DNA of 64,000 nucleotides, from positions 60,016,001 through 60,080,000 of the forward strand of contig OZ024745.1 of the NCBI GenBank assembly GCA_964016885.1, in the 5' to 3' direction. This stretch comes from Eledone cirrhosa (taxonomy: Eukaryota). Made by a program: the position numbers and the translations under genes. The notes beneath the pieces are model-generated. The model had not been told where the DNA came from and made no database searches. It worked only from the letters and a program-made list of their open reading frames with translations. Of this stretch, positions 1,312 through 63,193 are shown piece by piece (within the stretch, counting starts at the first letter, position 1; the number at the start of each line of letters is the position of its first letter).

Positions 1312-1710
1312 ACTTGGAGTGTAATGTACAACTTGGAGCATAATGTACAACTTGGAGCATAATGTACGACTTGGAGCATAATGTACGACTTAGAGTGTAA
1401 TGTAGGACTTAGAGTGTAATGTAGGACTTAGAGTGTAATGTAGGACTTAGAGTGTAATGTAGGACTTAGAGTGTAATGTAGGACTAGGAGCATAATGTAG
1501 GACTAGGAGCATAATGTACGACTTGGAGTGTAATGTAGGACTTGGAGTGTAATGTAGGACTTGGAGTGTAAACTGCGAGTTGAAATATAAATTGCGACTT
1601 GGATTGTAAACCTTGACTTGCAGTGTATTGAACAACTTGGGGTGTATACTGCGGCTTGGAGTGTAAACTGCGGCTCCGAATATAAACTACGACTTGCAGT
1701 GTCATATATG
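1312..1710. repeat. Diverged-monomer cassette copy 1 (21 x 19 bp = 399 bp)
   Basis: Monomer order: TGTAATGTACA; GCATAATGTAC(A/G) x3; ACTTAGAGTGTAATGTAGG x5; ACTAGGAGCATAATG x2; ACTTGGAGTGTAATGTAGG x2; then 8 distinct monomers ending ACTTGCAGTGTCATATATG. Confidence 0.95.
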
Positions 1711-2660
1711 ACTCTGAGTGAAAACCTCGACTTGGAGTGAAAACCTCGACTTGGAGTCAGAACCTCGACTTGGAGTGAGAACCTCGACTTGGAGTGAGAA
1801 CCTCGACTTGGAGTGAAAACCTCGACTTGGAGTGAGAACCTCGACTTGGAGTGAGAACCTCGACTTGGAGTGAGAACCTCGACTTGGAGTGAAAACCTCG
1901 ACTTGGAGTGAGAACCTCGACTTGGAGTGAAAACCTCGACTTGGAGTGAAAACCTCGACTTGGAGTGAAAACCTCGACTTGGAGTGAAAACCTCGACTTG
2001 GAGTGAGAACCTCGACTTGGAGTGAAAACCTCGACTTGGTGTGAGAACCTCGACTTGGAGTGAGAACCTCGACTTGGAGTGAGAACGTCGACTTGGAGTG
2101 AGAACGTCGACTTGGAGTGAGAACCTCGACTTGGAGTGAAAACCTCGACTTGGAGTGAAAACCTCGACTTGGAGTGAGAACCTCGACTTGGAGTGAGAAC
2201 CTCGACTTGGAGTGAAAACCTCGACTTGGAGTGAGAACCTCGACTTGGAGTGAGAACCTCGACTTGGAGTGAAAACCTCGACTTGGAGTGAGAACCTCGA
2301 CTTGGAGTGAGAACCTCGACTTGGAGTGAAAACCTCGACTTGGAGTGAAAACTTCGACTTGGAGTGAGAACCTCGACTTGGAGTGAGAACCTCGACTTGG
2401 AGTGAGAACCTCGACTTGGAGTGAAAACCTCGACTTGGTGCGAGAACCTCGACTTGGAGTTAAAACCTCGACTTGGAGTGAGAACCTCGACTTTGAGTGA
2501 GAACCTCGACTTGGAGTGAAAACCTCGACTTGGAGTGAGAACCTCTACTTGGAGTGAAAACCTCGACTTGGAGTGTAAACTGCGACTTGGAGTGAGAACC
2601 TCGACTTGGAGTGAAAACCTCGACTTGGAGTGTAAACTGCGACTTGGAGTGTAAACTGCG

Positions 2661-3059
2661 ACTTGGAGTGTAATGTACAACTTGGAGCATAATGTACAAC
2701 TTGGAGCATAATGTACGACTTGGAGCATAATGTACGACTTAGAGTGTAATGTAGGACTTAGAGTGTAATGTAGGACTTAGAGTGTAATGTAGGACTTAGA
2801 GTGTAATGTAGGACTTAGAGTGTAATGTAGGACTAGGAGCATAATGTAGGACTAGGAGCATAATGTACGACTTGGAGTGTAATGTAGGACTTGGAGTGTA
2901 ATGTAGGACTTGGAGTGTAAACTGCGAGTTGAAATATAAATTGCGACTTGGATTGTAAACCTTGACTTGCAGTGTATTGAACAACTTGGGGTGTATACTG
3001 CGGCTTGGAGTGTAAACTGCGGCTCCGAATATAAACTACGACTTGCAGTGTCATATATG
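2661..3059. repeat. Cassette copy 2
   Basis: Same 21-monomer order; 1349 bp (71 monomers) after copy 1. Confidence 0.95.
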
Positions 3060-5149
3060 ACTCTGAGTGAAAACCTCGACTTGGAGTGAAAACCTCGACT
3101 TGGAGTGAGAACCTCGACTTGGAGTGAGAACCTCGACTTGGAGTGAAAACCTCGACTTGGAGTGAGAACCTCGACTTGGAGTGAAAACCTCGACTTGGAG
3201 TGAAAACCTCGACTTGGAGTGAGAACCTCGACTTGGAGTGAAAACCTCGACTTGGAGTGAAAACCTCGACTTGGAGTGAGAACCTCGACTTGGAGTGAAA
3301 ACCTCGACTTGGAGTGAGAACCTCGACTTGGAGTGAAAACCTCGACTTGGAGTGAAAACCTCGACTTGGAGTGAGAACCTCGACTTGGAGTGAGAACCTC
3401 GACTTGGAGTGAAAACCTCGACTTGGAGTGAGAACCTCGACTTGGAGTGAGAACCTCGACTTGGAGTGAGAACCTCGACTTGGAGTGAAAACCTCGACTT
3501 GGAGTGAAAACCTCGACTTGGATTGAGAACCTCGACTTGGAGTGAAAACCTCGACTTGGAGTGAGAACCTCGACTTGGAGTGAGAACCTCGACTTGGAGT
3601 GAGAACCTCGACTTGAAGTGAGAACCTCGACTTGGAGTGAGAACCTCGACTTGGAGTGAGAACCTCGACTTGGAGTGAAAACTTCGACTTGGAGTGAGAA
3701 CCTCGACTTGGAGTGAGAACCTCGACTTGGAGTGAGAACCTCGACTTGGAGTGAGAACCTCGACTTGGAGTGATAACCTCGACTTGGAGTGAGAACCTCG
3801 ACTTGGAGTGAGAACCTCGACTTGGAGTGAAAACCTCGACTTGGAGTGAGAACCTCGACTTGGAGTGAAAACCTCGACTTGGAGTGAGAACCTCGACTTG
3901 GAGTGAAAACCTCGACTTGGAGTGAGAACCTCGACTTGGAGTGAAAACCTCGACTTGGAGTGAGAACCTCAACTTGGAGTGAGAACCTCGACTTTGAGTG
4001 AAAACCTCGACTTGGAGAGAGAACCTCGACTTGGAGTGAAAACCTCGACTTTGAGTGAAAACCTCGACTTGGAGTGAGAACCTCGACTTGGAGTGAGAAC
4101 CTCGACTTGGAGTGAGAACCTCGACTTGGAGTGAGAACCTCGACTTGGAGTGAGAACCTCGACTTGGAGTGAGAACCTCGACTTGGAGTGAGAACCTCGA
4201 CTTGGAGTGAAAACCTCGACTTGGAGTGAGAACCTCGACTTGGAGTGAAAACCTCGACTTGGAGTGAGAACCTCGACTTGGAGTGAAAACCTCGACTTGG
4301 AGTGAGAACCTCGACTTGGAGTGAAAACCTCGACTTGGAGTGAAAACCTCGACTTGGAGTGAGAACCTCGAATTGGAGTGAAAACCTCGACTTGGAGTGA
4401 GAACCTCGACTTGGAGTGAGAACCTCGACTTTGAGTGAAAACCTCGACTTGGAGAGAGAACCTCGACTTGGAGAGAGAACCTCGACTTGGAGTGAAAACC
4501 TCGACTTTGAGTGAAAACCTCGACTTGGAGTGAAAACCTCGACTTGGAGTGAGAACCTCGACTTGGAGTGGAAACCTCGACTTGGAGTGGAAACCTCGAC
4601 TTGGAGTGAAAACCTCGACTTGGAGTGAGAACCTCGACTTGGAGTGATAACCTCGACTTGGAGTGAGAACCTCGACTTGGAGTGAGAACCTCGACTTGGA
4701 GTGAAAACCTCGACTTGGAGTGAAAACCTCGACTTGGAGTGAAAACCTCGACTTGGAGTGAGAACCTCGACTTGGAGTGAGAACCTCGACTTGGAGTGAC
4801 AACCTCGACTTGGAGTGAGAACCTCGACGTGGAGTGAAAACTTCGACTTGGAGTGAGAACCTCGACTTGGAGTGAGAACCTCGACTTGGAGTGAGAACCT
4901 CGACTTGGAGTGAAAACCTCGACTTGGTGCGAGAACCTCGACTTGGAGTTAAAACCTCGACTTGGAGTGAGAACCTCGACTTTGAGTGAGAACCTCGACT
5001 TGGAGTGAAAACCTCGACTTGGAGTGAGAACCTCTACTTGGAGTGAAAACCTCGACTTGGAGTGTAAACTGCGACTTGGAGTGAGAACCTCGACTTGGAG
5101 TGAAAACCTCGACTTGGAGTGTAAACTGCGACTTGGAGTGTAAACTGCG

Positions 5150-5548
5150 ACTTGGAGTGTAATGTACAACTTGGAGCATAATGTACAACTTGGAGCATAA
5201 TGTACGACTTGGAGCATAATGTACGACTTAGAGTGTAATGTAGGACTTAGAGTGTAATGTAGGACTTAGAGTGTAATGTAGGACTTAGAGTGTAATGTAG
5301 GACTTAGAGTGTAATGTAGGACTAGGAGCATAATGTAGGACTAGGAGCATAATGTACGACTTGGAGTGTAATGTAGGACTTGGAGTGTAATGTAGGACTT
5401 GGAGTGTAAACTGCGAGTTGAAATATAAATTGCGACTTGGATTGTAAACCTTGACTTGCAGTGTATTGAACAACTTGGGGTGTATACTGCGGCTTGGAGT
5501 GTAAACTGCGGCTCCGAATATAAACTACGACTTGCAGTGTCATATATG
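5150..5548. repeat. Cassette copy 3
   Basis: Same order; +2489 bp (131 monomers). Confidence 0.95.
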
Positions 5549-8500
5549 ACTCTGAGTGAAAACCTCGACTTGGAGTGAAAACCTCGACTTGGAGTGAGAA
5601 CCTCGACTTGGAGTGAGAACCTCGACTTGGAGTGAAAACCTCGACTTGGAGTGAGAACCTCGACTTGGAGTGAAAACCTCGACTTGGAGTGAAAACCTCG
5701 ACTTGGAGTGAGAACCTCGACTTGGAGTGAAAACCTCGACTTGGAGTGAGAACCTCGACTTGGAGTGAAAACCTCGACTTGGAGTGAAAACCTCGACTTG
5801 GAGTGAGAACCTCGACTTGGAGTGAGAACCTCGACTTGGAGTGAAAACCTCGACTTGGAGTGAGAACCTCGACTTGGAGTGAGAACCTCGACTTGGAGTG
5901 AGAACCTCGACTTGGAGTGAAAACCTCGACTTGGAGTGAAAACCTCGACTTGGATTGAGAACCTCGACTTGGAGTGAAAACCTCGACTTGGAGTGAGAAC
6001 CTCGACTTGGAGTGAGAACCTCGACTTGGAGTGAGAACCTCGACTTGAAGTGAGAACCTCGACTTGGAGTGAGAACCTCGACTTGGAGTGAGAACCTCGA
6101 CTTGGAGTGAAAACTTCGACTTGGAGTGAGAACCTCGACTTGGAGTGAGAACCTCGACTTGGAGTGAGAACCTCGACTTGGAGTGAGAACCTCGACTTGG
6201 AGTGATAACCTCGACTTGGAGTGAGAACCTCGACTTGGAGTGAGAACCTCGACTTGGAGTGAAAACCTCGACTTGGAGTGAGAACCTCGACTTGGAGTGA
6301 AAACCTCGACTTGGAGTGAGAACCTCGACTTGGAGTGAAAACCTCGACTTGGAGTGAGAACCTCGACTTGGAGTGAAAACCTCGACTTGGAGTGAGAACC
6401 TCGACTTGGAGTGAGAACCTCGACTTTGAGTGAAAACCTCGACTTGGAGAGAGAACCTCGACTTGGAGTGAAAACCTCGACTTTGAGTGAAAACCTCGAC
6501 TTGGAGTGAGAACCTCGACTTTGAGTGAGAACCTCGACTTGGAGTGAGAACCTCGACTTGGAGTGAGAACCTCGACTTGGAGTGAGAACCTCGACTTGGA
6601 GTGAGAACCTCGACTTGGAGTGAGAACCTCGACTTGGAGTGAGAACCTCGACTTGGAGTGGAAACCTCGACTTGGAGTGAGAACCTCGACTTGGAGTGAA
6701 AACCTCGACTTGGAGTGAGAACCTCGACTTGGAGTGAAAACCTCGACTTGGAGTGAGAACCTCGACTTGGAGTGAAAACCTCGACTTGGAGTGAGAACCT
6801 CGACTTGGAGTGAAAACCTCGACTTGGAGTGAGAACCTCGACTTGGAGTGAAAACCTCGACTTGGAGTGAGAACCTCGACTTGGAGTGAGAACCTCGACT
6901 TTGAGTGAAAACCTCGACTTGGAGAGAGAACCTCGACTTGGAGAGAGAACCTCGACTTGGAGTGAAAACCTCGACTTTGAGTGAAAACCTCGACTTGGAG
7001 TGAAAACCTCGACTTGGAGTGAGAACCTCGACTTGGAGTGGAAACCTCGACTTGGAGTGGAAACCTCGACTTGGAGTGAAAACCTCGACTTGGAGTGAGA
7101 ACCTCGACTTGGAGTGATAACCTCGACTTGGAGTGAGAACCTCGACTTGGAGTGAGAACCTCGACTTGGAGTGAAAACCTCGACTTGGAGTGAAAACCTC
7201 GACTTGGAGTGAAAACCTCGACTTGGAGTGAGAACCTCGACTTGGAGTGAGAACCTCGACTTGGAGTGACAACCTCGACTTGGAGTGGAAACCTCGACTT
7301 GGAGTGAAAACCTCGACTTGGAGTGAAAACCTCGACTTGGAATGAGAACCTCGACTTGGAGTGAGAACCTCGACTTGGAGTGAAAACCTCGACTTGGAGT
7401 GAGAACCTTGACTTGGAGTGAGAACCTCGACTTGGAGTGAAAACCTCGACTTGGAGTGAGAACCTCGACTTGGAGTGAGAACCTCGACTTGGAGTGAGAA
7501 CCTCGACGTGGAGTGAGAACCTCGACTTGGAGTGAGAACCTCGACTTGGAGTGAAAACCTCGACTTGGAGTGAGAACCTCGACTTGGAGTGAAAACCTCG
7601 ACTTGGTGTGAGAACCTCGACTTGGAGTGAGAACCTCGACTTGGAGTGAGAACCTCGACTTGGAGTGAGAACCTCGACTTGCAGTGAAAACCTCGACTTG
7701 GAGTGAGAACCTCGACTTGGAGTGAAAACCTCGACTTGCAGTGAAAACCTCGACTTGGAGTGAGAACCTCGACTTGGAGTGAAAACCTCGACTTGGAGTG
7801 AAAACCTCGACTTGGAGTGAAAACCTCGACTTGGAGTGAGAACCTCGACTTGGAGTGAGAACCTCGACTTGGAGTGAGAACCTCGACTTGGAGTGAGAAC
7901 CTCGACTTGGAGTGAGAACCTCGACTTGGAGTGTAAACTGCGACTCTGAGTGAAAACCTCGACTTGGAGTGAGAACCTCGACTTGGAGTGAAAACCTCGA
8001 CTTGGAGTGAGAACCTCGACTTGGAGTGAGAACCTCGACTTGGAGTGAAAACCTCGACTTGGAGTGAAAACCTCGACTTGGAGTGAAAACCTCGACTTGG
8101 AGTGAGAACCTCGACTTGGAGTGAAAACCTCGACTTGGAGTGAAAACCTCGACTTGGAGTGAGAACCTCGACTTGGAGTGAGAACCTCGACTTGGAGTGA
8201 GAACCTCGACTTGGAGTGAGAACCTCGACTTGGAGTGTAAACTGCGACTCTGAGTGAAAACCTCGACTTGGAGTGAGAACCTCGACTTGGAGTGAAAACC
8301 TCGACTTGGAGTGAGAACCTCGACTTGGAGTCAGAACCTCGACTTGGAGTCAGAACCTCGACTTGGAGTCAGAACCTCGACTTGGAGTCAGAACCTCGAC
8401 TTGGAGTCAGAACCTCGACTTCGAGTGAAAACCTCGACTTGGAGTGAAAACCTCGACTTGGAGTGAGAACCTCGACTTGGAGTGAGAACCTCGACTTGGA

Positions 8501-8645
8501 GTGAAAACCTCGACTTGGAGTGAGAACCTCTACTTGGAGTGAAAACCTCGACTTGGAGTGTAAACTGCGACTTGGAGTGAGAACCTCGACTTGGAGTGAA
8601 AACCTCGACTTGGAGTGTAAACTGCGACTTGGAGTGTAAACTGCG

Positions 8646-9044
8646 ACTTGGAGTGTAATGTACAACTTGGAGCATAATGTACAACTTGGAGCATAATGTA
8701 CGACTTGGAGCATAATGTACGACTTAGAGTGTAATGTAGGACTTAGAGTGTAATGTAGGACTTAGAGTGTAATGTAGGACTTAGAGTGTAATGTAGGACT
8801 TAGAGTGTAATGTAGGACTAGGAGCATAATGTAGGACTAGGAGCATAATGTACGACTTGGAGAGTAATGTAGGACTTGGAGTGTAATGTAGGACTTGGAG
8901 TGTAAACTGCGAGTTGAAATATAAATTGCGACTTGGATTGTAAACCTTGACTTGCAGTGTATTGAACAACTTGGGGTGTATACTGCGGCTTGCAGTGTAA
9001 ACTGCGGCTCCGAATATAAACTACGACTTGCAGTGTCATATATG
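8646..9044. repeat. Cassette copy 4 (GGAGAGTAAT subtype)
   Basis: +3496 bp (184 monomers); variant GGAGAGTAAT near 8861; followed by GAACACTTCAAC. Confidence 0.95.
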
Positions 9045-9956
9045 ACTCTGAGTGAACACTTCAACTTGGAGTGAAAACCTCGACTTGGAGTGAGAACCTC
9101 GACTTGGAGTGAGAACCTCGACTTGGAGTGAAAACCTCGACTTGGAGTGAGAACCTCGACTTGGAGTGAAAACCTCGACTTGGAGTGAAAACCTCGACTT
9201 GGAGTGAGAACCTCGACTTGGAGTGAGAACCTCGACTTGGAGTGAGAACCTCGACTTGGAGTGAAAACCTCGACTTGGAGTGAGAACCTCGACTTGGAGT
9301 GAGAACCTCGACTTGGAGTGAGAACCTCGACTTGGAGTGAAAACCTCGACTTGGAGTGAGAACCTCGACTTGGAGTGAAAACCTCGACTTGGAGTGAAAA
9401 CCTCGACTTGGAGTGAAAACCTCGACTTGGAGTGAAAACCTCGACTTGGAGTGAGAACCTCGACTTGGAGTGAAAACCTCGACTTGGAGTGAGAACCTCG
9501 ACTTGGAGTGAGAACCTCGACTTGGAGTGAGAACGTCGACTTGGAGTGAGAACGTCGACTTGGAGTGAGAACCTCGACTTGGAGTGAAAACCTCGACTTG
9601 GAGTGAAAACCTCGACTTGGAGTGAGAACCTCGACTTGGAGTGAGAACCTCGACTTGGAGTGAAAACCTCGACTTGGAGTGAGAACCTCGACTTGGAGTG
9701 AGAACCTCGACTTGGAGTGAAAACCTCGACTTGGAGTGAAAACTTCGACTTGGAGTGAGAACCTCGACTTTGAGTGAGAACCTCGACTTGGAGTGAAAAC
9801 CTCGACTTGGAGTGAGAACCTCTACTTGGAGTGAAAACCTCTACTTGGAGTGAAAACCTCGACTTGGAGTGTAAACTGCGACTTGGAGTGAGAACCTCGA
9901 CTTGGAGTGAAAACCTCGACTTGGAGTGTAAACTGCGACTTGGAGTGTAAACTGCG

Positions 9957-10355
9957 ACTTGGAGTGTAATGTACAACTTGGAGCATAATGTACAACTTGG
10001 AGCATAATGTACGACTTGGAGCATAATGTACGACTTAGAGTGTAATGTAGGACTTAGAGTGTAATGTAGGACTTAGAGTGTAATGTAGGACTTAGAGTGT
10101 AATGTAGGACTTAGAGTGTAATGTAGGACTAGGAGCATAATGTAGGACTAGGAGCATAATGTACGACTTGGAGTGTAATGTAGGACTTGGAGTGTAATGT
10201 AGGACTTGGAGTGTAAACTGCGAGTTGAAATATAAATTGCGACTTGGATTGTAAAGCTTGACTTGCAGTGTATTGAACAACTTGGGGTGTATACTGCGGC
10301 TTGGAGTGTAAACTGCGGCTCCGAATATAAACTACGACTTGCAGTGTCATATCTG
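9957..10355. repeat. Cassette copy 5 (CATATCTG subtype)
   Basis: +1311 bp (69 monomers); CATATCTG end; private AAAGCTTG near 10253. Confidence 0.95.
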
Positions 10356-12350
10356 ACTCTGAGTGAAAACCTCGACTTGGAGTGAAAACCTCGACTTGGA
10401 GTGAGAACCTCGACTTGGAGTGAGAACCTCGACTTGGAGTGAAAACCTCGACTTGGAGTGAGAACCTCGACTTGGAGTGAAAACCTCGACTTGGAGTGAA
10501 AACCTCGACTTGGAGTGAGAACCTCGACTTGGAGTGAGAACCTCGACTTGGAGTGAGAACCTCGACTTGGAGTGAAAACCTCGACTTGGAGTGAGAACCT
10601 CGACTTGGAGTGAGAACCTCGACTTGGAGTGAGAACCTCGACTTGGAGTGAAAACCTCGACTTGGAGTGAGAACCTCGACTTGGAGTGAGAACCTCGACT
10701 TGGAGTGAAAACCTCGACTTGGAGTGAAAACCTCGACTTGGAGTGAAAACCTCGACTTGGAGTGAGAACCTCGACTTGGAGTGAAAACCTCGACTTGGAG
10801 TGAGAACCTCGACTTGGAGTGAGAACCTCGACTTGGAGTGAGAACCTCGACTTGGAGTGAAAACCTCGACTTGGAGTGAGAACCTCGACTTGGAGTGAGA
10901 ACCTCGACTTGGAGTGAGAACGTCGACTTGGAGTGAGAACGTCGACTTGGAGTGAGAACCTCGACTTGGAGTGAAAACCTCGACTTGGAGTGAAAACCTC
11001 GACTTGGAGTGAGAACCTCGACTTGGAGTGAGAACCTCGACTTGGAGTGAAAACCTCGACTTGGAGTGAGAACCTCGACTTGGAGTGAGAACCTCGACTT
11101 GGAGTGAAAACCTCGACTTGGAGTGAGAACCTCGACTTGGAGTGAGAACCTCGACTTGGAGTGAGAACCTCGACTTGGAGTGAAAACCTCGACTTGGAGT
11201 GAAAACTTCGACTTGGAGTGAGAACCTCGACTTGGAGTGAGAACCTCGACTTGGAGTGAGAACCTCGACTTGGAGTGAAAACCTCGACTTGGTGCGAGAA
11301 CCTCGACTTGGAGTTAAAACCTCGACTTGGAGTGAGAACCTCGACTTGGAGTGAAAACCTCGACTTGGAGTGAGAACCTCGACTTGGAGTGAGAACCTCG
11401 ACTTGGAGTGGAAACCTCGACTTGGAGTGAAAACCTCGACTTGGAGTCAGAACCTCGACTTTGAGTGAAAACCTCGACTTGGGGTGAGAACCTCGACTTG
11501 GAGTGAAAACCTCGACTTGGAGTGAGAACCTCGACTTGGAGTGAAAACCTCGACTTGGAGTGAAAACCTCGACTTGGAGTGAGAACCTCGACTTGGAGTG
11601 GAAACCTCGACTTGTAGTGAAAACCTCGACTTGGAGTGAAAACCTCGACTTGGAGTGAGAACCTCGACTTGGAGTGAGAACCTCGACTTGGAGTGAGAAC
11701 CTCGACTTGGAGTGAGAACCTCGACTTGGAGTGAGAACCTCGACTTGGAGTGAAAACCTCGACTTGGAGTGAGAACCTCGACTTGGAGTGAAAACCTCGA
11801 CTTGGAGTGAAAACCTCGACTTGGAGTGAAAACCTCGACTTGGAGTGAGAACCTCGACTTGGAGTGAGAACCTCGACTTGGAGTGACAACCTCGACTTGG
11901 AGTGAAAACCTCGACTTGGAGTGAGAACCTCGACTTGGAGTGAGAACCACGACTTGGAGTGAAAACCTCGACTTGGAGTGAGAACCTCGACTTGGAGTGA
12001 AAACCTCGACTTGGAGGGAAAACCTCGACTTGGAGTGAGAACCTCGACTTGGAGTGAGAACCTCGACTTGGAGTGAGAACCTCGACTTGGAGTGAGAACC
12101 TCGACTTGGAGTGAAAACCTCGACTTGGAGTGAAAACCTCGACTTGGAGTGAAAACCTCGACTTGGAGTGAGAACCTCGACTTGGAGTGAGAACCTCGAC
12201 TTGGAGTGAAAACCTCGACTTGGAGTGAGAACCTCTACTTGGAGTGAAAACCTCGACTTGAAGTGTAAACTGCGACTTGGAGTGAGAACCTCGACTTGGA
12301 GTGAAAACCTCGACTTGGAGTGTAAACTGCGACTTGGAGTGTAAACTGCG

Positions 12351-12749
12351 ACTTGCAGTGTAATGTACAACTTGGAGCATAATGTACAACTTGGAGCATA
12401 ATGTACGACTTGGAGCATAATGTACGACTTAGAGTGTAATGTAGGACTTAGAGTGTAATGTAGGACTTAGAGTGTAATGTAGGACTTAGAGTGTAATGTA
12501 GGACTTAGAGTGTAATGTAGGACTTGGAGCATAATGTAGGACTAGGAGCATAATGTACGACTTGGAGTGTAATGTAGGACTTGGAGTGTAATGTAGGACT
12601 TGGAGTGTAAACTGCGAGTTGAAATATAAATTGCGACTTGGATTGTAAACCTTGACTTGCAGTGTATTGAACAACTTGGGGTGTATACTGCGGCTTGGAG
12701 TGTAAACTGCGGCTCCGAATATAAACTACGACTTGCAGTGTCATATATG
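12351..12749. repeat. Cassette copy 6
   Basis: +2394 bp (126 monomers); starts ACTTGCAGTGTAATGTACA; first ACTAGG replaced by ACTTGG. Confidence 0.95.
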
Positions 12750-14041: not shown

Positions 14042-14440
14042 ACTTGGAGTGTAATGTACAACTTGGAGCATAATGTACAACTTGGAGCATAATGTACGAC
14101 TTGGAGCATAATGTACGACTTAGAGTGTAATGTAGGACTTAGAGTGTAATGTAGGACTTAGAGTGTAATGTAGGACTTAGAGTGTAATGTAGGACTTAGA
14201 GTGTAATGTAGGACTAGGAGCATAATGTAGGACTAGGAGCATAATGTACGACTTGGAGTGTAATGTAGGACTTGGAGTGTAATGTAGGACTTGGAGTGTA
14301 AACTGCGAGTTGAAATATAAATTGCGACTTGGATTGTAAACCTTGACTTGCAGTGTATTGAACAACTTGGGGTGTATACTGCGGCTTGGAGTGTAAACTG
14401 CGGCTCCGAATATAAACTACGACTTGCAGTGTCATATATG
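14042..14440. repeat. Cassette copy 7
   Basis: +1691 bp (89 monomers). Confidence 0.95.
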
Positions 14441-50217: not shown

Positions 50218-50597
50218 ACTTGCAGTGTAATGTACAACTTGGAGCATAATGTACAACTTGGAGCATAATGTACGACTTAGAGTGTAATGTAGGACTTAGA
50301 GTGTAATGTAGGACTTAGAGTGTAATGTAGGACTTAGAGTGTAATGTAGGACTTAGAGTGTAATGTAGGACTTGGAGCATAATGTAGGACTAGGAGCATA
50401 ATGTACGACTTGGAGTGTAATGTAGGACTTGGAGTGTAATGTAGGACTTGGAGTGTAAACTGCGAGTTGAAATATAAATTGCGACTTGGATTGTAAACCT
50501 TGACTTGCAGTGTATTGAACAACTTGGGGTGTATACTGCGGCTTGGAGTGTAAACTGCGGCTCCGAATATAAACTACGACTTGCAGTGTCATATATG
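50218..50597. repeat. Cassette copy 22 (20 monomers)
   Basis: +2489 bp (131 monomers, right end); lacks one GCATAATGTACG monomer; shares the copy 6 variants. Confidence 0.95.
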
Positions 50598-52573: not shown

Positions 52574-52972
52574 ACTTGGAGTGTAATGTACAACTTGGAG
52601 CATAATGTACAACTTGGAGCATAATGTACGACTTGGAGCATAATGTACGACTTAGAGTGTAATGTAGGACTTAGAGTGTAATGTAGGACTTAGAGTGTAA
52701 TGTAGGACTTAGAGTGTAATGTAGGACTTAGAGTGTAATGTAGGACTAGGAGCATAATGTAGGACTAGGAGCATAATGTACGACTTGGAGTGTAATGTAG
52801 GACTTGGAGTGTAATGTAGGACTTGGAGTGTAAACTGCGAGTTGAAATATAAATTGCGACTTGGATTGTAAACCTTGACTTGCAGTGTATTGAACAACTT
52901 GGGGTGTATACTGCGGCTTGGAGTGTAAACTGCGGCTCCGAATATAAACTACGACTTGCAGTGTCATATATG
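52574..52972. repeat. Cassette copy 23
   Basis: +2375 bp (125 monomers, right end). Confidence 0.95.
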
Positions 52973-55518
52973 ACTCTGAGTGAAAACCTCGACTTGGAGT
53001 GAAAACCTCGACTTGGAGTGAGAACCTCGACTTGGAGTGAGAACCTCGACTTGGAGTGAAAACCTCGACTTGGAGTGAGAACCTCGACTTGGAGTGAAAA
53101 CCTCGACTTGGAGTGAGAACCTCGACTTGGAGTGAAAACCTCAACTTGGAGTGAGAACCTCGACTTGGAGTGAAAACCTCGACTTGGAGTGAAAACCTCG
53201 ACTTGGAGTGAGAACCTCGACTTGGAGTGAGAACCTCGATTTGGAGTGAAAACCTCGACTTGGAGTGAGAACCTCGACTTGGAGTGAGAACCTCGACTTG
53301 GAGTGAGAACATCGACTTGGAGTGAGAACCTCGACTTGGAGTGAGAACCTCGACTTGGAGTGAGAACCTCGACTTGGAGTGAGAACCTCGACTTGGAGTG
53401 AAAACCTCGACTTGGAGTGAGAACCTCGACTTGGAGTGAAAACCTCGACTTGGAGTGAGAACCTCGACTTGGAGTGAAAACCTCGACTTGGAGTGAGAAC
53501 CTCGACTTGGAGTGAGAACCTCGACTTTGAGTGAAAACCTCGACTTGGAGAGAGAACCTCGACTTGGAGTGAGAACCTCGACTTTGAGTGAAAACCTCGA
53601 CTTGGAGTGAGAACCTCGACTTTGAGTGAAAACCTCGACTTGGAGTGAGAACCTCGACTTGGAGTGAGAACCTCGACTTGGAGTGAGAACCTCGACTTGG
53701 AGTGGAAACCTCGACTTGGAGTGAGAACCTCGACTTGGAGTGAAAACCTCGACTTGGAGTGAGAACCTCGACTTGGAGTGAAAACCTCGACTTGGAGTGA
53801 AAACCTCGACTTGGAGTGAAAACCTCGACTTGGAGTGAGAACCTCGACTTGGAGTGAAAACCTCGACTTGGAGTGAGAACCTCGACTTGGAGTGAAAACC
53901 TCGACTTGGAGTGAGAACCTCGACTTGGAGTGAAAACCTCGACTTGGAGTGAGAACCTCGACTTGGAGTGAGAACCTCGACTTTGTGTGAAAACCTCGAC
54001 TTGGAGAGAGAACCTCGACTTGGAGTGAGAACCTCGACTTTGAGTGAAAACCTCGACTTGGAGTGAGAACCTCGACTTTGAGTGAAAACCTCGACTTGGA
54101 GTGAGAACCTCGACTTGGAGTGAAAACCTCGACTTGGAGTGAAAACCTCGACTTGGAGTGAGAACCTCGACTTGGAGTGGAAACCTCGACTTGGAGTGGA
54201 AACCTCGACTTGGAGTGAAAACCTCGACTTGGAGTGAGAACCTCGACTTGGAGTGAGAACCTCGACTTGGAGTGAGAACCTCGACTTGGAGTGAGAACCT
54301 CGACTTGGAGTGAGAACCTCGACTTGGAGTGAGAACCTCGACTAGGAGTGAGAACCTCGACTTGGAGTGAAAACCTCGACTAGGAGTGAGAACCTCGACT
54401 TGGAGTGAGAACCTCGACTTGGAGTGAGAACCTCGACTTGGAGTGAGAACCTCGACTTGGAGTGAGAACCTCGACTTGGAGTGAGAACCTCGACTTGCAG
54501 TGAAAACCTCGACTTGGAGTGAGAACCTCGACTTGCAGTGAAAACCTCGACTTGGAGTGAGAACCTCGACTTGCAGTGAAAACCTCGACTTGGAGTGAGA
54601 ACCTCGACTTGGAGTGAAAACCTCGACTTGCAGTGAAAACCTCGACTTGGAGTGAGAACCTCGACTTGGAGTGAAAACCTCGACTTGGAGTGAAAACCTC
54701 GACTTGGAATGAAGACCTCGACTTGGAATGAGAACCTCGACTTGGAGTGAGAACCTCGACTTGGAGTGAGAACCTCGACTTGGAGTGAGAACCTCGACTT
54801 GGAGTGAGAACCTCGACTTGGAGTGTAAACTGCGACTCTGAGTGAAAACCTCGACGTGGAGTAAGAACCTCGACTTGGAGTGAAAACCTCGACTTGGAGT
54901 GAGAACCTCGACTTGGAGTGAGAACCTCGACTTGGAGTGAAAACCTCGACTTGGAGTGAAAACCTCGACTTGGAGTGAAAACCTCGACTTGGAGTGAGAA
55001 CCTCGACTTGGAGTGAAAACCTCGACTTGGAGTGAAAACCTCGACTTGGAGTGAGAACCTCGACTTGGAGTGAGAACCTCGACTTGGAGTGAGAACCTCG
55101 ACTTGGAGTGTAAACTGCGACTCTGAGTGAAAACCTCGACTTGGAGTGAGAACCTCGACTTGGAGTGAAAACCTCGACTTGGAGTGAGAACCTCGACTTG
55201 GAGTCAGAACCTCGACTTGGAGTCAGAACCTCAACTTGGAGTCAGAACCTCGACTTGGAGTCAGAACCTCGACTTGGAGTCAGAACCTCGACTTGGAGTG
55301 AAAACCTCGACTTGGAGTGAAAACCTCGACTTGGAGTGAGAACCTCGACTTGGAGTGAGAACCTCGACTTGGAGTGAAAACCTCGACTTGGAGTGAGAAC
55401 CTCTACTTGGAGTGAAAACCTCGACTTGGAGTGTAAACTGCGACTTGGAGTGAGAACCTCGACTTGGAGTGAAAACCTCGACTTGGAGTGTAAACTGCGA
55501 CTTGGAGTGTAAACTGCG

Positions 55519-55917
55519 ACTTGGAGTGTAATGTACAACTTGGAGCATAATGTACAACTTGGAGCATAATGTACGACTTGGAGCATAATGTACGACTTAG
55601 AGTGTAATGTAGGACTTAGAGTGTAATGTAGGACTTAGAGTGTAATGTAGGACTTAGAGTGTAATGTAGGACTTAGAGTGTAATGTAGGACTAGGAGCAT
55701 AATGTAGGACTAGGAGCATAATGTACGACTTGGAGTGTAATGTAGGACTTGGAGTGTAATGTAGGACTTGGAGTGTAAACTGCGAGTTGAAATATAAATT
55801 GCGACTTGGATTGTAAACCTTGACTTGCAGTGTATTGAACAACTTGGGGTGTATACTGCGGCTTGGAGTGTAAACTGCGGCTCCGAATATAAACTACGAC
55901 TTGCAGTGTCATATATG
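55519..55917. repeat. Cassette copy 24
   Basis: +2945 bp (155 monomers). Confidence 0.95.
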
Positions 55918-58900
55918 ACTCTGAGTGAAAACCTCGACTTGGAGTGAAAACCTCGACTTGGAGTGAGAACCTCGACTTGGAGTGAGAACCTCGACTTGGA
56001 GTGAAAACCTCGACTTGGAGTGAGAACCTCGACTTGGAGTGAAAACCTCGACTTGGAGTGAAAACCTCGACTTGGAGTGAGAACCTCGACTTGGAGTGAA
56101 AACCTCGACTTGGAGTGAGAACCTCGACTTGGAGTGAAAACCTCGACTTGGAGTGAAAACCTCGACTTGGAGTGAGAACCTCGACTTGGAGTGAGAACCT
56201 CGACTTGGAGTGAGAACCTCGACTTGGAGTGAGAACCTCGACTTGGAGTGAGAACCTCGACTTGGAGTGAGAACCTCGACTTGGAGTGAGAACCTCGACT
56301 TGGAGTGAGAACCTCGACTTGGAGTGAGAACCTCGACTTGGAGTGAGAACCTCGACTTGGAGTGAAAACCTCGACTTGGAGTGAGAACCTCGACTTGGAG
56401 TGAGAACCTCGACTTGGAGTGAGAACCTCGACTTGGAGTGAAAACTTCGACTTGGAGTGAGAACCTCGACTTGGAGTGAGAACCTCGACTTGGAGTGAGA
56501 ACCTCGACTTGGAGTGGAAACCTCGACTTGGAGTGAGAACCTCGACTTGGAGTGAGAACCTCGACTTGGAGTGAGAACCTCGACTTGGAGTGAGAACCTC
56601 GACTTGGAGTGAGAACCTCGACTTGGAGTGAAAACCTCGACTTGGAGTGAGAACCTCGACTTGGAGTGAAAACCTCGACTTGGAGTGAGAACCTCGACTT
56701 GGAGTGAAAACCTCGACTTGGAGTGAGAACCTCGACTTGGAGTGAGAACCTCGACTTGGAGTGAGAACCTCGACTTGGAGTGAGAACCTCGACTTTGAGT
56801 GAAAACCTCGACTTGGAGAGAGAACCTCCACTTGGAGTGAGAACCTCGACTTTGAATGAAAACCTCGACTTGGAGTGAGAACCTCGACTTTGAGTGAAAA
56901 CCTCGACTTGGAGTGAGAACCTCGACTTGGAGTGAGAACCTCGACTTGGAGTGAGAACCTCGACTTGGAGTGGAAACCTCGACTTGGAGTGAGAACCTCG
57001 ACTTGGAGTGAAAACCTCGACTTGGAGTGAGAACCTCGACTTGGAGTGAAAACCTCGACTTGGAGTGAGAACCTCGACTTGGAGTGAAAACCTCGACTTG
57101 GAGTGAGAACCTCGACTTGGAGTGAAAACCTCGACTTGGAGTGAGAACCTCGACTTGGAGTGAAAACCTCGACTTGGAGTGAGAACCTCGACTTGGAGTG
57201 AAAACCTCGACTTGGAGTGAGAACCTCGACTTGGAGTGAAAACCTCGACTTGGAGTGAGAACCTCGACTTGGAGTGAGAACCTCGACTTTGAGTGAAAAC
57301 CTCGACTTGGAGAGAGAACCTCGACTTGGAGTGAGAACCTCGACTTTGAGTGAAAACCTCGACTTGGAGTGAGAACCTCGACTTTGAGTGAAAACCTCGA
57401 CTTGGAGTGAGAACCTCGACTTGGAGTGAAAACCTCGACTTGGAGTGAAAACCTCGACTTGGAGTGAGAACCTCGACTTGGAGTGGAAACCTCGACTTGG
57501 AGTGAGAACCTCGACTTGGAGTGAAAACCTCGACTTGGAGTGAGAACCTCGACTTGGAGTGAGAACCTCGACTTGGAGTGAGAACCTCGACTTGGAGTGA
57601 GAACCTCGACTTGGAGTGAGAACCTCGACTTGGAGTGATAACCTCGACTTGGAGTGAGAACCTCGACTTGGAGTGAGAACCACGACTTGGAGTGAAAACC
57701 TCGACTTGGAGTGAAAACCTCGACTTGGAGTGAAAACCTCGACTTGGAGTGAAAACCTCGACTTGGAGTGAGAACCTCGACTTGGAGTGACAACCTCGAC
57801 TTGGAGTGAAAACCTCGACTTGGAGTGAAAACCTCGACTTGGAGTGAAAACCTCGACTTGGAGTGAGAACCTCGACTTGGAGTGAGAACCTCGACTTGGA
57901 GTGAAAACCTCGACTTGGAGTGAGAACCTCGACTTGGAGTGAGAACCTCGACTTGGAGTGAAAACCTCGATTGGAGTGAGAACCTCGACTTGGAGTGAGA
58001 ACCTCGACTTGGAGTGAGAACCTCGACGTGGAGTGAGAACCTCGACTTGGAGTGAGAACCTCGACTTGGAGTGAAAACCTCGACTTGGAGTGAGAACCTC
58101 GACTTGGAGTGAAAACCTCGACTTGGAGTGAAAACCTCGACTTGGAGTGAGAACCTCGACTTGGAGTGAGAACCTCGACTTGGAGTGAGAACCTCGACTT
58201 GGAGTGTAAACTGCGACTCTGAGTGAAAACCTCGACTTGGAGTGAGAACCTCGACTTGGAGTGAAAACCTCGACTTGGAGTGAGAACCTCGACTTGGAGT
58301 CAGAACCTCGACTTGGAGTCAGAACCTCGACTTGGAGTCAGAACCTCGACTTGGAGTCAGAACCTCGACTTGGAGTCAGAACCTCGACTTGGAGTGAAAA
58401 CCTCGACTTGGAGTGAAAACCTCGACTTGGAGTGAGAACCTCGACTTGGAGTCAGAACCTCGACTTGGAGTGAAAACCTCGACTTGGAGTGAAAACCTCG
58501 ACTTGGAGTGAGAACCTCGACTTGGAGTGAGAACCTCGACTTGGAGTGAAAACCTCGACTTGGAGTGAGAACCTCTACTTGGAGTGAGAACCTCGACTTG
58601 GAGTGAGAACCTCGACTTGGAGTGAGAACCTCGACTTGGAGTGAGAACCTCGACTTGGAGTGTAAACTGCGACTCTGAGTGAAAACCTCGACTTGGAGTG
58701 AGAACCTCGACTTGGAGTGAAAACCTCGACTTGGAGTGAGAACCTCGACTTGGAGTCAGAACCTCGACTTGGAGTCAGAACCTCGACTTGGAGTCAGAAC
58801 CTCGACTTGGAGTGAAAACCTCGACTTGGAGTGAAAACCTCGACTTGGAGTGAAAACCTCGACTTGGAGTGAAAACCTCGACTAGGAGTGAGAACCTCGA

Positions 58901-60590
58901 CTTGGAGTGAGAACCTCGACTTGGAGTGAGAACCTCGACTTGGAGTGAGAACCTCGACTTGGAGTGAGAACCTCGACTTGGAGTGAGAACCTCGACTTGC
59001 AGTGAAAACCTCGACTTGGAGTGAGAACCTCGACTTGGAGTGAGAACCTCGACTTGGAGTGAGAACCTCGACTTGGAGTGAGAACCTCGACTTGGAGTGT
59101 AAACTGCAACTCTGAGTGAAAACCTCGACGTGGAGTGAGAACCTCCACTTGGAGTGAGAACCTCGACTTGGAGTGAAAACCTCGACTTGGAGTGAGAACC
59201 TCGACTTGGAGTGAGAACCTCGACTTGGAGTGAGAACCTCGACGTGTAGTGAGAACCTCGACTTGGAGTGAGAACCTCGACTTGGAGTGAGAACCTCGAC
59301 TTGGAGTGAAAACCTCGACTTGGAGTGAAAACCTCGACTTGGAGTGAAAACCTCGACTTGGAGTGAAAACCTCGACTAGGAGTGAGAACCTCGACTTGGA
59401 GTGAGAACCTCGACTTGGAGTGAGAACCTCGACTTGGAGTGAGAACCTCGACTTGGAGTGAGAACCTCGACTTGGAGTGAGAACCTCGACTTGCATTGAA
59501 AACCTCGACTTGGAGTGAGAACCTCGACTTGCAGTGAAAACCTCGACTTGGAGTGAGAACCTCGACTTGCAGTGAAAACCTCGACTTGGAGTGAGAACCT
59601 CGACTTGGAGTGAAAACCTCGACTTGCAGTGAAAACCTCGACTTGGAGTGAGAACCTCGACTTGGAGTGAAAACCTCGACTTGGAGTGAAAACCTCGACT
59701 TGGAATGAAGACCTCGACTTGGAGTGAGAACCTCGACTTGGAGTGAGAACCTCGACTTGGAGTGAGAACCTCGACTTGGAGTGAGAACCTCGACTTGGAG
59801 TGAGAACCTCGACTTGGAGTGTAAACTGCGACTCTGAGTGAAAACCTCGACGTGGAGTGAGAACCTCGACTTGGAGTGAAAACCTCGACTTGGAGTGAGA
59901 ACCTCGACTTGGAGTGAGAACCTCGACTTGGAGTGAAAACCTCGACTTGGAGTGAAAACCTCGACTTGGAGTGAAAACCTCGACTTGGAGTGAGAACCTC
60001 GACTTGGAGTGAAAACCTCGACTTGGAGTGAAAACCTCGACTTGGAGTGAGAACCTCGACTTGGAGTGAGAACCTCGACTTGGAGTGAGAACCTCGACTT
60101 GGAGTGTAAACTGCGACTCTGAGTGAAAACCTCGACTTGGAGTGAGAACCTCGACTTGGAGTGAAAACCTCGACTTGGAGTGAGAACCTCGACTTGGAGT
60201 CAGAACCTCGACTTGGAGTCAGAACCTCGACTTGGAGTCAGAACCTCGACTTGGAGTCAGAACCTCGACTTGGAGTCAGAACCTCGACTTGGAGTGAAAA
60301 CCTCGACTTGGAGTGAAAACCTCGACTTGGAGTGAGAACCTCGACTTGGAGTCAGAACCTCGACTTGGAGTGAAAACCTCGACTTGGAGTGAAAACCTCG
60401 ACTTGGAGTGAGAACCTCGACTTGGAGTGAGAACCTCGACTTGGAGTGAAAACCTCGACTTGGAGTGAGAACCTCTACTTGGAGTGAAAACCTCGACTTG
60501 GAGTGTAAACTGCGACTTGGAGTGAGAACCTCGACTTGGAGTGAAAACCTCGACTTGGAGTGTAAACTGCGACTTGGAGTGTAAACTGCG

Positions 60591-60989
60591 ACTTGGAGTG
60601 TAATGTACAACTTGGAGCATAATGTACAACTTGGAGCATAATGTACGACTTGGAGCATAATGTACGACTTAGAGTGTAATGTAGGACTTAGAGTGTAATG
60701 TAGGACTTAGAGTGTAATGTAGGACTTAGAGTGTAATGTAGGACTTAGAGTGTAATGTAGGACTAGGAGCATAATGTAGGACTAGGAGCATAATGTACGA
60801 CTTGGAGTGTAATGTAGGACTTGGAGTGTAATGTAGGACTTGGAGTGTAAACTGCGAGTTGAAATATAAATTGCGACTTGGATTGTAAACCTTGACTTGC
60901 AGTGTATTGAACAACTTGGGGTGTATACTGCGGCTTGGAGTGTAAACTGCGGCTCCGAATATAAACTACGACTTGCAGTGTCATATATG
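60591..60989. repeat. Cassette copy 25
   Basis: +5072 bp (267 monomers minus 1 bp). Confidence 0.95.
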
Positions 60990-62794
60990 ACTCTGAGTGA
61001 AAACCTCGACTTGGAGTGAAAACCTCGACTTGGAGTGAGAACCTCGACTTGGAGTGAGAACCTCGACTTGGAGTGAAAACCTCGACTTGGAGTGAGAACC
61101 TCGACTTGGAGTGAAAACCTCGACTTGGAGTGAAAACCTCGACTTGGAGTGAGAACCTCGACTTGGAGTGAAAACCTCGACTTGGAGTGAAAACCTCGAC
61201 TTGGAGTGAAAACCTCGACTTGGAGTGAGAACCTCGACTTGGAGTGAGAACCTCGACTTGGAGTGACAACCTCGACTTGGAGTGGAAACCTCGACTTGGA
61301 GTGAAAACCTCGACTTGGAGTGAATACCTCGACTTGGAATGAGAACCTCGACTTGGAGTGAGAACCTCGACTTGGAGTGAAAACCTCGACTTGGAGTGAG
61401 AACCTTGACTTGGAGTGAGAACCTCGACTTGGAGTGAAAACCTCGACTTGGAGTGAGAACCTCGACTTGGAGTGAGAACCTCGACTTGGAGTGAGAACCT
61501 CGACGTGGAGTGAGAACCTCGACTTGGAGTGAGAACCTCGACTTGGAGTGAAAACCTCGACTTGGAGTGAGAACCTCGACTTGGAGTGAAAACCTCGACT
61601 TGGTGTGAGAACCTCGACTTGGAGTGAGAACCTCGACTTGGAGTGAAAACCTCGACTTGGAGTGAAAACCTCGACTTGGAGTGAAAACCTCGACTTGGAG
61701 TGAGAACCTCGACTTGGAGTGAGAACCTCGACTTGGAGTGAGAACCTCGACTTGGAGTGAGAACCTCGACTTGCAGTGAAAACCTCGACTTGGAGTGAGA
61801 ACCTCGACTTGCAGTGAAAACCTCGACTTGGAGTGAGAACCTCGACTTGCAGTGAAAACCTCGACTTGGAGTGAGAACCTCGACTTGGAGTGAAAACCTC
61901 GACTTGCAGTGAAAACCTCGACTTGGAGTGAGAACCTCGACTTGGAGTGAAAACCTCGACTTGGAGTGAAAACCTCGACTTGGAATGAAAACCTCGACTT
62001 GGAGTGAGAACCTCGACTTGGAGTGAGAACCTCGACTTGGAGTGAGAACCTCGACTTGGAGTGAGAACCTCGACTTGGAGTGAGAACCTCGACTTGGAGT
62101 GAGAACCTCGACTTGGAGTGTAAACTGCGACTCTGAGTGAAAACCTCGACTTGGAGTGAGAACCTCGACTTGGAGTGAAAACCTCGACTTGGAGTGAGAA
62201 CCTCGACTTGGAGTGAAAACCTCGACTTGGAGTGAAAACCTCGACTTGGAGTGAAAACCTCGACTTGGAGTGAGAACCTCGACTTGGAGTGAAAACCTCG
62301 ACTTGGAGTGAAAACCTCGACTTGGAGTGAGAACCTCGACTTGGAGTGAGAACCTCGACTTGGAGTGAGAACCTCGACTTGGAGTGAGAACCTCGACTTG
62401 GAGTGTAAACTGCGACTCTGAGTGAAAACCTCGACTTGGAGTGAGAACCTCGACTTGGAGTGAAAACCTCGACTTGGAGTGAGAACCTCGACTTGGAGTC
62501 AGAACCTCGACTTGGAGTCAGAACCTCGACTTGGAGTCAGAACCTCGACTTGGAGTCAGAACCTCGACTTGGAGTCAGAACCTCGACTTGGAGTGAAAAC
62601 CTCGACTTGGAGTGAGAACCTCGACTTGGAGTGAGAACCTCGACTTGGAGTGAAAACCTCGACTTGGAGTGAGAACCTCTACTTGGAGTGAAAACCTCGA
62701 CTTGGAGTGTAAACTGCGACTTGGAGTGAGAACCTCGACTTGGAGTGAAAACCTCGACTTGAAGTGTAAACTGCGACTTGGAGTGTAAACTGCG

Positions 62795-63193
62795 ACTTGG
62801 AGTGTAATGTACAACTTGGAGCATAATGTACAACTTGGAGCATAATGTACGACTTGGAGCATAATGTACGACTTAGAGTGTAATGTAGGACTTAGAGTGT
62901 AATGTAGGACTTAGAGTGTAATGTAGGACTTAGAGTGTAATGTAGGACTTAGAGTGTAATGTAGGACTAGGAGCATAATGTAGGACTAGGAGCATAATGT
63001 ACGACTTGGAGTGTAATGTAGGACTTGGAGTGTAATGTAGGACTTGGAGTGTAAACTGCGAGTTGAAATATAAATTGCGACTTGGATTGTAAACCTTGAC
63101 TTGCAGTGTATTGAACAACTTGGGGTGTATACTGCGGCTTGGAGTGTAAACTGCGGCTCCGAATATAAACTACGACTTGCAGTGTCATATATG
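62795..63193. repeat. Cassette copy 26
   Basis: +2204 bp (116 monomers). Confidence 0.95.

What the first reader, a model, noticed from the sequence alone, without database searches (positions are those of the whole stretch)
1312..63193. Variable-length higher-order repeat: an invariant 399-bp cassette of diverged monomers punctuates a homogeneous 19-bp satellite 26 times
Seen: the cassette is built from the same 19-bp frame but with strongly diverged, AT-richer monomers (e.g. AGTTGAAATATAAATTGCG, 5/19 GC, against 9-10/19 in the core). It is almost identical in all 26 copies, differing only by a few SNVs and by loss of 1-2 monomers in three copies. The cassette-to-cassette period varies fourfold: 71, 131, 184, 69, 126, 89, 167, 196, 93, 140, 145, 94, 150, 71, 245, 69, 73, 66, 195, 68, 131, 125, 155, 267 and 116 monomers. 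Known: classical HORs such as primate alpha-satellite have a largely fixed monomer count. Inference: this constant-anchor plus elastic-spacer design could be a functional landmark (protein binding, centromeric chromatin or transcription unit). Alternatively, diverged monomers may simply resist the slippage that resizes homogeneous tracts.
Basis: partly seen in the sequence, partly recalled or inferred. Interest (0 to 1): 0.75.

Follow-up and report, generated by a model that had tools for sequence, protein, structure and literature searches.

The report
Fossil repeat block riding young satellite
The 399-base cassette is real and nearly matches a block in the older-looking repeat unit at both ends of this one-million-base satellite array; it was likely carried along as a passenger while the near-identical repeats around it were duplicated and deleted, so the variable spacing likely needs no function.

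Summary
Observation confirmed exactly: 26 cassettes, all 25 spacings, TaqI and BstZ17I sites. The window lies in a 1.02-Mb array of 19-bp monomers on one 135-Mb chromosome of a likely octopod. Both array ends carry a heterogeneous higher-order repeat holding the cassette with each monomer single. Inward, these monomers stutter and the core monomer appears by four single-base steps. 424 kb of the array has no cassette; a two-monomer doublet that looks like its deletion scar is as common as the cassette. Spacings are inherited: a ~62-kb tandem duplication repeats the ladder, 22 of 25 spacings within 2 monomers. In 51 paralogous unit pairs, substitutions per kb are 0.81 (spacer), 0.49 (stuttered cassette half) and 0.90 (unique half); indels per 100 monomers 0.90, 0.93 and 0. 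Only monomers unlike their neighbours escape indels. A toy model of homology-dependent duplication and deletion without selection gives the same pattern. This is an undescribed member of a known kind (layered satellite with nested, variant HORs). A centromere role is untested and not favoured.

The parts
1..64000 (+). 19-bp satellite, part of a ~1.02-Mb array (G000:C5 about 59,287,900-60,308,200); the window lies in the cassette-bearing domain
1312..1558 (+). Cassette 1, stuttered half: 13 monomers that are local expansions of about five monomers present singly at the array edges; elastic (main run mostly 3-6 copies, one of 16)
1559..1710 (+). Cassette 1, unique half: 8 mutually diverged monomers (mean 6.7 of 19 mismatches to the next); 0 indels in 560 aligned monomers
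1711..1729 (+). Junction monomer after the cassette: 5' half as in the edge unit, 3' half as in the core (likely hybrid)
1160..1311 (+). Mostly constant 8 monomers upstream of the cassette
628..665 (+). Example of the two-monomer doublet (old-type monomer + junction monomer), likely scar of a whole-cassette deletion; 247 on C5, 71 on C1
1..33155 (+). Half of the window whose paralogue lies 61.5-62.1 kb downstream
33156..64000 (+). Half of the window whose paralogue lies 61.5-62.9 kb upstream
57951..57968 (+). Only 18-bp monomer in the window; also present in the upstream paralogue (both periods 266.95 monomers)
2661..3059 (+). Cassette 2
5150..5548 (+). Cassette 3
8646..9044 (+). Cassette 4 (2 SNVs)
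9957..10355 (+). Cassette 5 (2 SNVs)
12351..12749 (+). Cassette 6 (2 SNVs)
14042..14440 (+). Cassette 7
17215..17613 (+). Cassette 8
20939..21337 (+). Cassette 9
22706..23104 (+). Cassette 10
25366..25764 (+). Cassette 11 (1 SNV)
28121..28519 (+). Cassette 12
29907..30305 (+). Cassette 13
32757..33155 (+). Cassette 14
34106..34504 (+). Cassette 15
38799..39159 (+). Cassette 16 (19 monomers; two lost from the identical run)
40072..40470 (+). Cassette 17 (1 SNV)
41459..41857 (+). Cassette 18
42713..43111 (+). Cassette 19 (1 SNV)
46456..46816 (+). Cassette 20 (19 monomers)
47710..48108 (+). Cassette 21 (1 SNV)
50218..50597 (+). Cassette 22 (20 monomers)
52574..52972 (+). Cassette 23
55519..55917 (+). 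Cassette 24
60591..60989 (+). Cassette 25
62795..63193 (+). Cassette 26

Best explanation
The cassette is a near-exact match to a block of the heterogeneous higher-order repeat found at both ends of this 1-Mb array, and it is likely an old relic that was joined once to a run of the young core monomer and then multiplied as a passenger by in-register, likely homology-directed duplications and deletions. Shown: the layered map, the single-copy edge version, the stuttering, the cassette-free domains, the ~62-kb duplication and the substitution and indel rates. Inferred: that the edges are older; that the junction monomer is a recombinant; that the doublet is a deletion scar; that breakpoints need near-identical neighbours. 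Under that rule any core monomer can pair with any other (about 1 mismatch in 19), so spacers and the stuttered half change length, while the unique half (about 7 mismatches in 19) can pair only with another cassette in register, which leaves it unchanged, or be deleted whole.
For: Edge units on both sides hold the cassette with single monomers; the collapsed window cassette differs from the left-edge block at 5 of 228 bp. The 13th monomer differs from its edge counterpart at 3 sites, all in the 3' half and all to the core state. Core monomers link to the old type by four single-base steps, and the intermediates peak in the inner left edge and left transition layer. No cassette in 22,327 monomers (424 kb) of C5 or in the 68.5-kb C1 block. 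247 doublets against 244 cassettes on C5; 11 of 29 sites of one subtype keep the cassette's upstream flank. 22 of 25 window spacings recur within 2 monomers ~62 kb away. 51 unit pairs: substitutions per kb 0.81/0.49/0.90 and indels per 100 monomers 0.90/0.93/0 for spacer/stuttered/unique; 70 pairs: 0 of 560 unique against 135 of 7,676 spacer monomers, p = 1e-4. Rare, probably new, variants: 10 in 20 kb of cassette, 26 in 104 kb of spacer. Toy model with a homology rule and no selection: unique half 100% intact, spacing CV 0.63 as observed; without the rule 55-92% intact. In-register indels and homology-directed repair are reported for Arabidopsis arrays (abstract).
Against: Within the ~62-kb duplication alone the cassettes carry 2 substitutions in 10.2 kb against 31-36 in 52.3 kb of spacer, where proportion would give 6-7; in the 38 closest pairs the deficit is p = 0.10 and the indel contrast is not significant (p = 0.63). 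Pairs from one block duplication are not fully independent, and units were anchored on the unique half, so losses that remove the anchor are not counted there. Periods under 50 monomers are rarer than the model's mean (5 of 189 against about 7%, per-run range 0-20% at the matching setting). The cassette is kept about every 2.7 kb over 509 kb. There is no outgroup to root the edge-to-centre order. The model's event sizes and thresholds were chosen by me.
Confidence: 0.8

Rival explanations
1. The cassette is a functional landmark (protein-binding, nucleosome-phasing or hypomethylated island) kept at intervals by selection or drive, possibly in a chromosome-specific centromere.
For: AT-richer and CpG-poorer than the core. 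Kept in 190 copies over 509 kb, the domain with the largest recent duplication. The array is interstitial (44% along C5) and mirror-layered like centromeric arrays. Slight substitution deficit in the youngest pairs.
Against: No significant substitution deficit at any of three thresholds. Absent from 424 kb of the same array and from the C1 block. The family is almost confined to one chromosome. 6 of 40 spot samples along C5 were wall-to-wall tandem arrays of six different units, one a 20-bp satellite shared with C1 at 65.15 Mb, so large arrays are common here. [quoted passage not shown]
Confidence: 0.12
2. The spacing ladder or the ~62-kb duplication is partly an assembly product (mis-joined reads, or two haplotypes placed in tandem).
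For: A 200-N gap lies inside the array at C5:59,798,089 and the C1 block starts at another. No long reads were available; short-read contigs cannot span spacers.
Against: The two copies differ by about 38 substitutions and 27 indels yet agree over kilobases, single-base oddities such as the 18-bp monomer recur in both, and a public run holds 141 bp of the cassette exactly at depth 971 (it may be the assembly's own source). If the copies were alleles, the rate comparison would still hold.
Confidence: 0.06
3. The array encodes or transcribes something (repetitive protein or structured RNA), with the cassette as a domain or signal.
For: The core is free of stop codons on the minus strand, giving open stretches up to 1,420 codons.
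Against: The cassette has 2-4 stops in each minus-strand frame and spacings fall in all classes modulo 3 (12, 8, 5); plus-strand frames are at most 56 codons; 0 Rfam matches at E up to 1 in window 1,000-6,000.
Confidence: 0.02

Closest known systems
Local-nested HORs of human alpha satellite (HiCAT, PMC10053651; passages read)
   Same: HOR units whose length varies because a sub-block is tandemly amplified, e.g. CEN15 1-2-3-4-5-(6-7-8-9)xn-10-11; here both the stuttered half and the spacer do this.
   Different: Monomer is 19 bp, not ~171; the variable part is 85% of the unit and also varies by long internal deletions, so periods span 24-837 monomers; no canonical length exists.
Layered expansion of alpha-satellite arrays, with structural-variant HORs and hybrid monomers (10.1101/2021.07.12.452052, passages; PMC4496801, passages; PMC12321929, passages)
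   Same: More divergent repeat on both flanks, homogeneous interior, hybrid monomers at rearrangement points, macro-repeats, recent amplification of older material.
   Different: Polarity is reversed: the flanks are the complex HOR and the interior tends to a near-monomeric repeat. No link to a kinetochore is shown, and the layers are only partly symmetric (cassette-free core on the left only).
Homogenised blocks of Arabidopsis centromeric satellite (10.1101/2025.06.02.657473; abstract and outline only)
   Same: Whole-unit kilobase indels, local conversion, and simulations that give block structure from mutation alone.
   Different: Shown there by mutation-accumulation lines in known centromeres; here inferred from paralogues in one assembly.
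Interruptions that stabilise microsatellites (PMC4102424; search listing and start of abstract only)
   Same: Variant units lower the rate of length change.
   Different: Scale: 1-4 bp units and up to 10 copies there, a 152-bp block in a megabase array here.

Membership tests
Satellite with local-nested / variant higher-order repeats | Monomers within the unit more diverged than copies of the unit | tested here: met
   Unique half: 6.7 of 19 mismatches between neighbours, 123 of 190 copies identical. The spacer part meets this only weakly (1.1 mismatches).
Satellite with local-nested / variant higher-order repeats | Unit length varies by tandem amplification or in-register loss of sub-blocks | tested here: met
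   53,184 of 53,706 C5 monomers are 19 bp.
Classical fixed-length HOR | One dominant unit length | tested here: not met
   189 periods, median 127, CV 0.63, range 24-837.
Layered-expansion array | Related divergent layers on both flanks of a homogeneous core | tested here: met
   Both ends share the single-copy cassette and its alleles; core monomers are 0% of the left edge, about 12% of the right edge and 65-77% inside.
Layered-expansion array | Age gradient dated independently (inserted elements, outgroup species) | tested here: inconclusive
   No inserted elements to date; a 1.5-kb orphan on C10 and a contig from another organism label carry edge or transition alleles but give no root.
Centromeric satellite | CENP-A occupancy and kinetochore site | not testable with these tools
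   No chromatin data.
Centromeric satellite | One array per chromosome across the karyotype (genome-wide family) | tested here: not met
   All 17,287 core 29-mers lie in the C5 array (15,877) and one C1 block (1,410); cassette probes add only C10. A chromosome-specific centromere is not excluded by this.
Sequence-constrained functional element | Fewer substitutions than neighbouring homologous DNA | tested here: not met
   p = 0.10, 0.58, 0.12 at three thresholds; power is modest (3-23 cassette substitutions).
Known structured RNA | Rfam match | tested here: not met
   0 matches at E up to 1 in window 1,000-6,000.

The most novel reading that the evidence does not exclude
The array is the chromosome-specific centromere of C5 in a cephalopod, and the AT-rich, CpG-poor relic cassette has been recruited as a periodic CENP-A-loading or hypomethylated landmark, which is why the cassette-bearing domain is expanding by 60-kb blocks while the cassette-free core is left behind.
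Probability: 0.08. Interest if true: 0.75.

Novelty: new member of a known kind. Interest (0 to 1): 0.3.

Why it matters
As read here it is ordinary satellite evolution, but an unusually legible case: one array keeps the old unit, the step-by-step origin of the new monomer, the junction that made the new unit, the likely scar of its loss and a recent 62-kb duplication. It gives an internal control showing that a constant block with variable spacing follows from local homology alone, so such patterns are not evidence of function. It would matter much more if CENP-A mapped here: my searches returned no paper describing cephalopod centromeric DNA.

Tried and rejected
Coding repeat: rejected. Known RNA: none. 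Mobile cassette inserted at many sites: rejected; it is in the 19-bp frame, always on one strand, and exact probes find it only in this array and a C10 orphan; the one C1 reverse hit is a chance 17-mer in non-satellite DNA. Random elastic spacers: rejected. Expression: no RNA holder listed, which says nothing either way. Cross-species conservation: inconclusive. Run X3 (organism B) holds 171 bp of the window cassette with 1 difference, an allele seen in 5 copies of the array; X6 (organism D) holds 124 bp with left-transition alleles joined to unrelated sequence; X5 laid nothing on the window block, and X5 and X7 gave only short pieces on the edge block. Flanking ORFs look like decayed transposons by eye (recalled, not scanned); no host gene was identified. 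The Atlas look-up of a flanking ORF gave no result. Papers: 9 searches listed nothing on this family or on cephalopod centromeric satellites; genome-paper supplements and repeat libraries were not seen and could hold it. Earlier notes: none near this place or by sequence. Of the 17-mer probe, 24 forward and 4 reverse matches lie outside the C5 and C1 arrays; the C10 orphan holds some, the reverse ones were not located.
Full report
Observation. The window is one 19-bp array. This is far beyond chance. The cassette has two halves: 13 monomers in short runs of identical or near-identical units, and 8 monomers unlike each other. All three monomer losses in the window are in the first half.

Setting. 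The window is C5:60,016,001-60,080,000 of a 3.0-Gb assembly; C5 is 134.7 Mb. The genome has molluscan haemocyanin domains, 39 matches, with three clusters of seven on C1; seven units as the octopod type, and the octopus-like SINE in the flanks, are recalled, and earlier unchecked notes also call the genome octopod. I fetched the whole array: about 59,287,900-60,308,200, 53,706 monomers, one 200-N gap at 59,798,089. Exact probes show near confinement: 172 of 172 cassette-marker matches are in it; 17,287 core 29-mers split 15,877 here and 1,410 in a 68.5-kb block on C1 that starts at a gap and abuts another satellite; 238 of 240 matches of a second cassette probe are here, and a 1.5-kb orphan on C10 shows two such sites.

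Layers. Counting anchors gives 244 cassette homologues: 6 in the left edge, 19 in a left transition layer, 0 in the next 424 kb (22,327 monomers), 190 in 59.748-60.257 Mb and 29 in the right edge. At both edges the array is a heterogeneous higher-order repeat of roughly 1-2 kb in which the cassette occurs with each monomer single and with shared alleles. Collapsing the window cassette's runs gives a block differing from the left-edge block at 5 of 228 bp. In the transition layers the same monomers stutter to varied lengths. The core monomers are absent from the left edge, about 12% of the right edge and 65-77% of the interior, and they connect to the old monomer type by four single-base steps whose intermediates peak in the inner left edge (11%) and the left transition (5%). 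The monomer that follows the cassette has the edge unit's 5' half and differs from it at three 3' sites, all to the core state: likely the junction that created the cassette-plus-core unit. That the edges are older is inferred from their symmetry, heterogeneity and the C10 orphan; no outgroup roots it.

The cassette can be lost. The junction monomer occurs 445 times on C5, 247 times directly after an old-type monomer with no cassette between; C1 has 71 such doublets and no cassette. At 11 of 29 sites of one subtype, in the cassette-free core, the doublet is preceded by the same monomer string that precedes intact cassettes. I read these as scars of whole-cassette deletion that were then amplified (inferred). 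Partial losses exist too: two truncated unique halves among 190, two orphan tails in the left transition, and fragmented blocks in the C10 orphan.

Spacers are inherited. The list of periods repeats with a lag of 25 cassettes. Aligning 26 unit pairs in monomer space shows a tandem duplication with offset 61.5-62.9 kb; 22 of the window's 25 spacings recur within 2 monomers, three differ by 11, 33 and 59. Spacers are deletion and duplication derivatives of one ordered string of landmark variants. The window covers almost exactly one period, which is why the ladder looked irregular.

Constraint test. Of 189 units, 186 were used (3 dropped for an N or more than 420 monomers) and paired greedily into 70 disjoint pairs. 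For the 51 pairs scoring 0.8 or more, substitutions per kb were 0.81 in spacer (0.99 with the two-state core site), 0.49 in the stuttered half and 0.90 in the unique half (cassette against spacer p = 0.58). Indels per 100 monomers were 0.90 (49 of 5,453), 0.93 (6 of 645) and 0 (0 of 408; p = 0.048); for all 70 pairs 135 of 7,676, 11 of 874 and 0 of 560 (p = 1e-4). Mean mismatches to the next monomer are 1.1, 1.4 and 6.7. So length stability tracks local dissimilarity, not cassette membership, and sequence is not detectably conserved. Against this: in the 62-kb duplication alone cassettes show 2 substitutions where proportion gives 6-7, and in the 38 closest pairs p = 0.10 for substitutions and 0.63 for indels; many spacer differences involve common variants and may be conversions, while rare variants are not fewer in cassettes (10 in 20 kb against 26 in 104 kb). 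Pairs from one block are not independent.

Sufficiency. A toy model (60 copies of one real 140-monomer unit; random duplications and deletions accepted only if two monomers at both breakpoints differ by at most 3 bases; no selection) leaves the unique half intact in all runs, erodes the stuttered half (80% canonical; observed 125 of 190) and reaches the observed spacing CV of 0.63, with quantiles 43/77/119/171/320 against 59/88/127/177/270 observed (12 and 40 runs per setting). Without the homology rule 55-92% of unique halves stay intact. Short periods are rarer in the data (5 of 189 under 50) than the model mean (about 7%) but within its range. The parameters are mine; the model shows sufficiency only.

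Rivals. Coding and RNA readings fail. Assembly error cannot be excluded without long reads, but a public run holds the cassette exactly at high depth. A centromere role is possible: the array is interstitial and layered. But the family is not genome-wide, 6 of 40 two-kb samples along C5 were other wall-to-wall arrays, including a 20-bp satellite shared with C1's satellite cluster, and no such shared satellite was found in about 87 kb left and 46 kb right of this array. Runs under other organism labels carry cassette pieces, but what those labels mean is unknown.

Known kinds. Length-variable nested HORs (PMC10053651, passages), layered expansion, structural-variant HORs and hybrid monomers (10.1101/2021.07.12.452052, PMC4496801, PMC12321929, passages) and whole-unit homology-directed indels (10.1101/2025.06.02.657473, abstract) cover the features seen; PMC13011684 (abstract) reports no HOR class tied to centromere function in maize. 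Nine searches found no description of this family; supplements and repeat libraries were not seen.

Verdict. Real; an undescribed, extreme but explicable member of a known kind; neutral passenger 0.80, functional landmark 0.12, assembly effect 0.06, coding or RNA 0.02. Interest 0.3.

Noticed in passing
L038:1-3300 and L100 (C1 near 279.37-279.39 Mb): A 16-bp satellite whose consensus aligns with the transition-type 19-bp monomer (shared blocks either side of a 4-base gap); p = 0.001 against 2,000 shuffles for the best of six monomers tried. The two families may share an ancestor.
   Followed up: partly
C1:279,407,803-279,476,350 (L039-L120): 68.5-kb cassette-free block of the same core monomers, all 3,608 monomers 19 bp, starting at a 200-N gap and joined without gap to a 20-bp satellite; its informative monomer words match only the cassette domain of C5. 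A seeded copy or a misplaced contig.
   Followed up: partly
L140:3853-5410 (C10:9,943,853-9,945,410): 1.5-kb orphan of old- and transition-type monomers with fragmented cassettes, set between long (TA)n tracts.
   Followed up: partly
L002:5086 (C5:59,310,086): One cassette with the derived marker allele sits in the left transition layer, 438 kb from the next one; it may mark a layer split by growth of the cassette-free core.
   Followed up: partly
L029:2560-2900: Just left of the array there is a GC-richer patch with a small inverted repeat and a CCGGAAGT motif, recalled as typical of ETS-bound promoters; no gene was looked for.
   Followed up: no
L143, L148, L162, L170, L173, L182: Six of 40 spot samples along C5 are full-length tandem arrays with units of 37, 61, 20, 48, 53 and 42 bp.
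   Followed up: no
L091-L092 region (C5 about 60,322,000-60,326,500): Two adjacent perfect 310-bp tandem arrays of 8 and 6 copies, 100% matches.
   Followed up: no
L099 (C1:279,700,001-279,705,000): 196-bp satellite, which earlier notes name as the stronger general centromere candidate.
   Followed up: no
Run X6, contig of 242 bases laid on L029:4348-4471: Cassette fragment with left-transition alleles joined to 118 bases of unrelated sequence; no such junction was found among this genome's 13 copies of that allele, all inside the array.
   Followed up: partly
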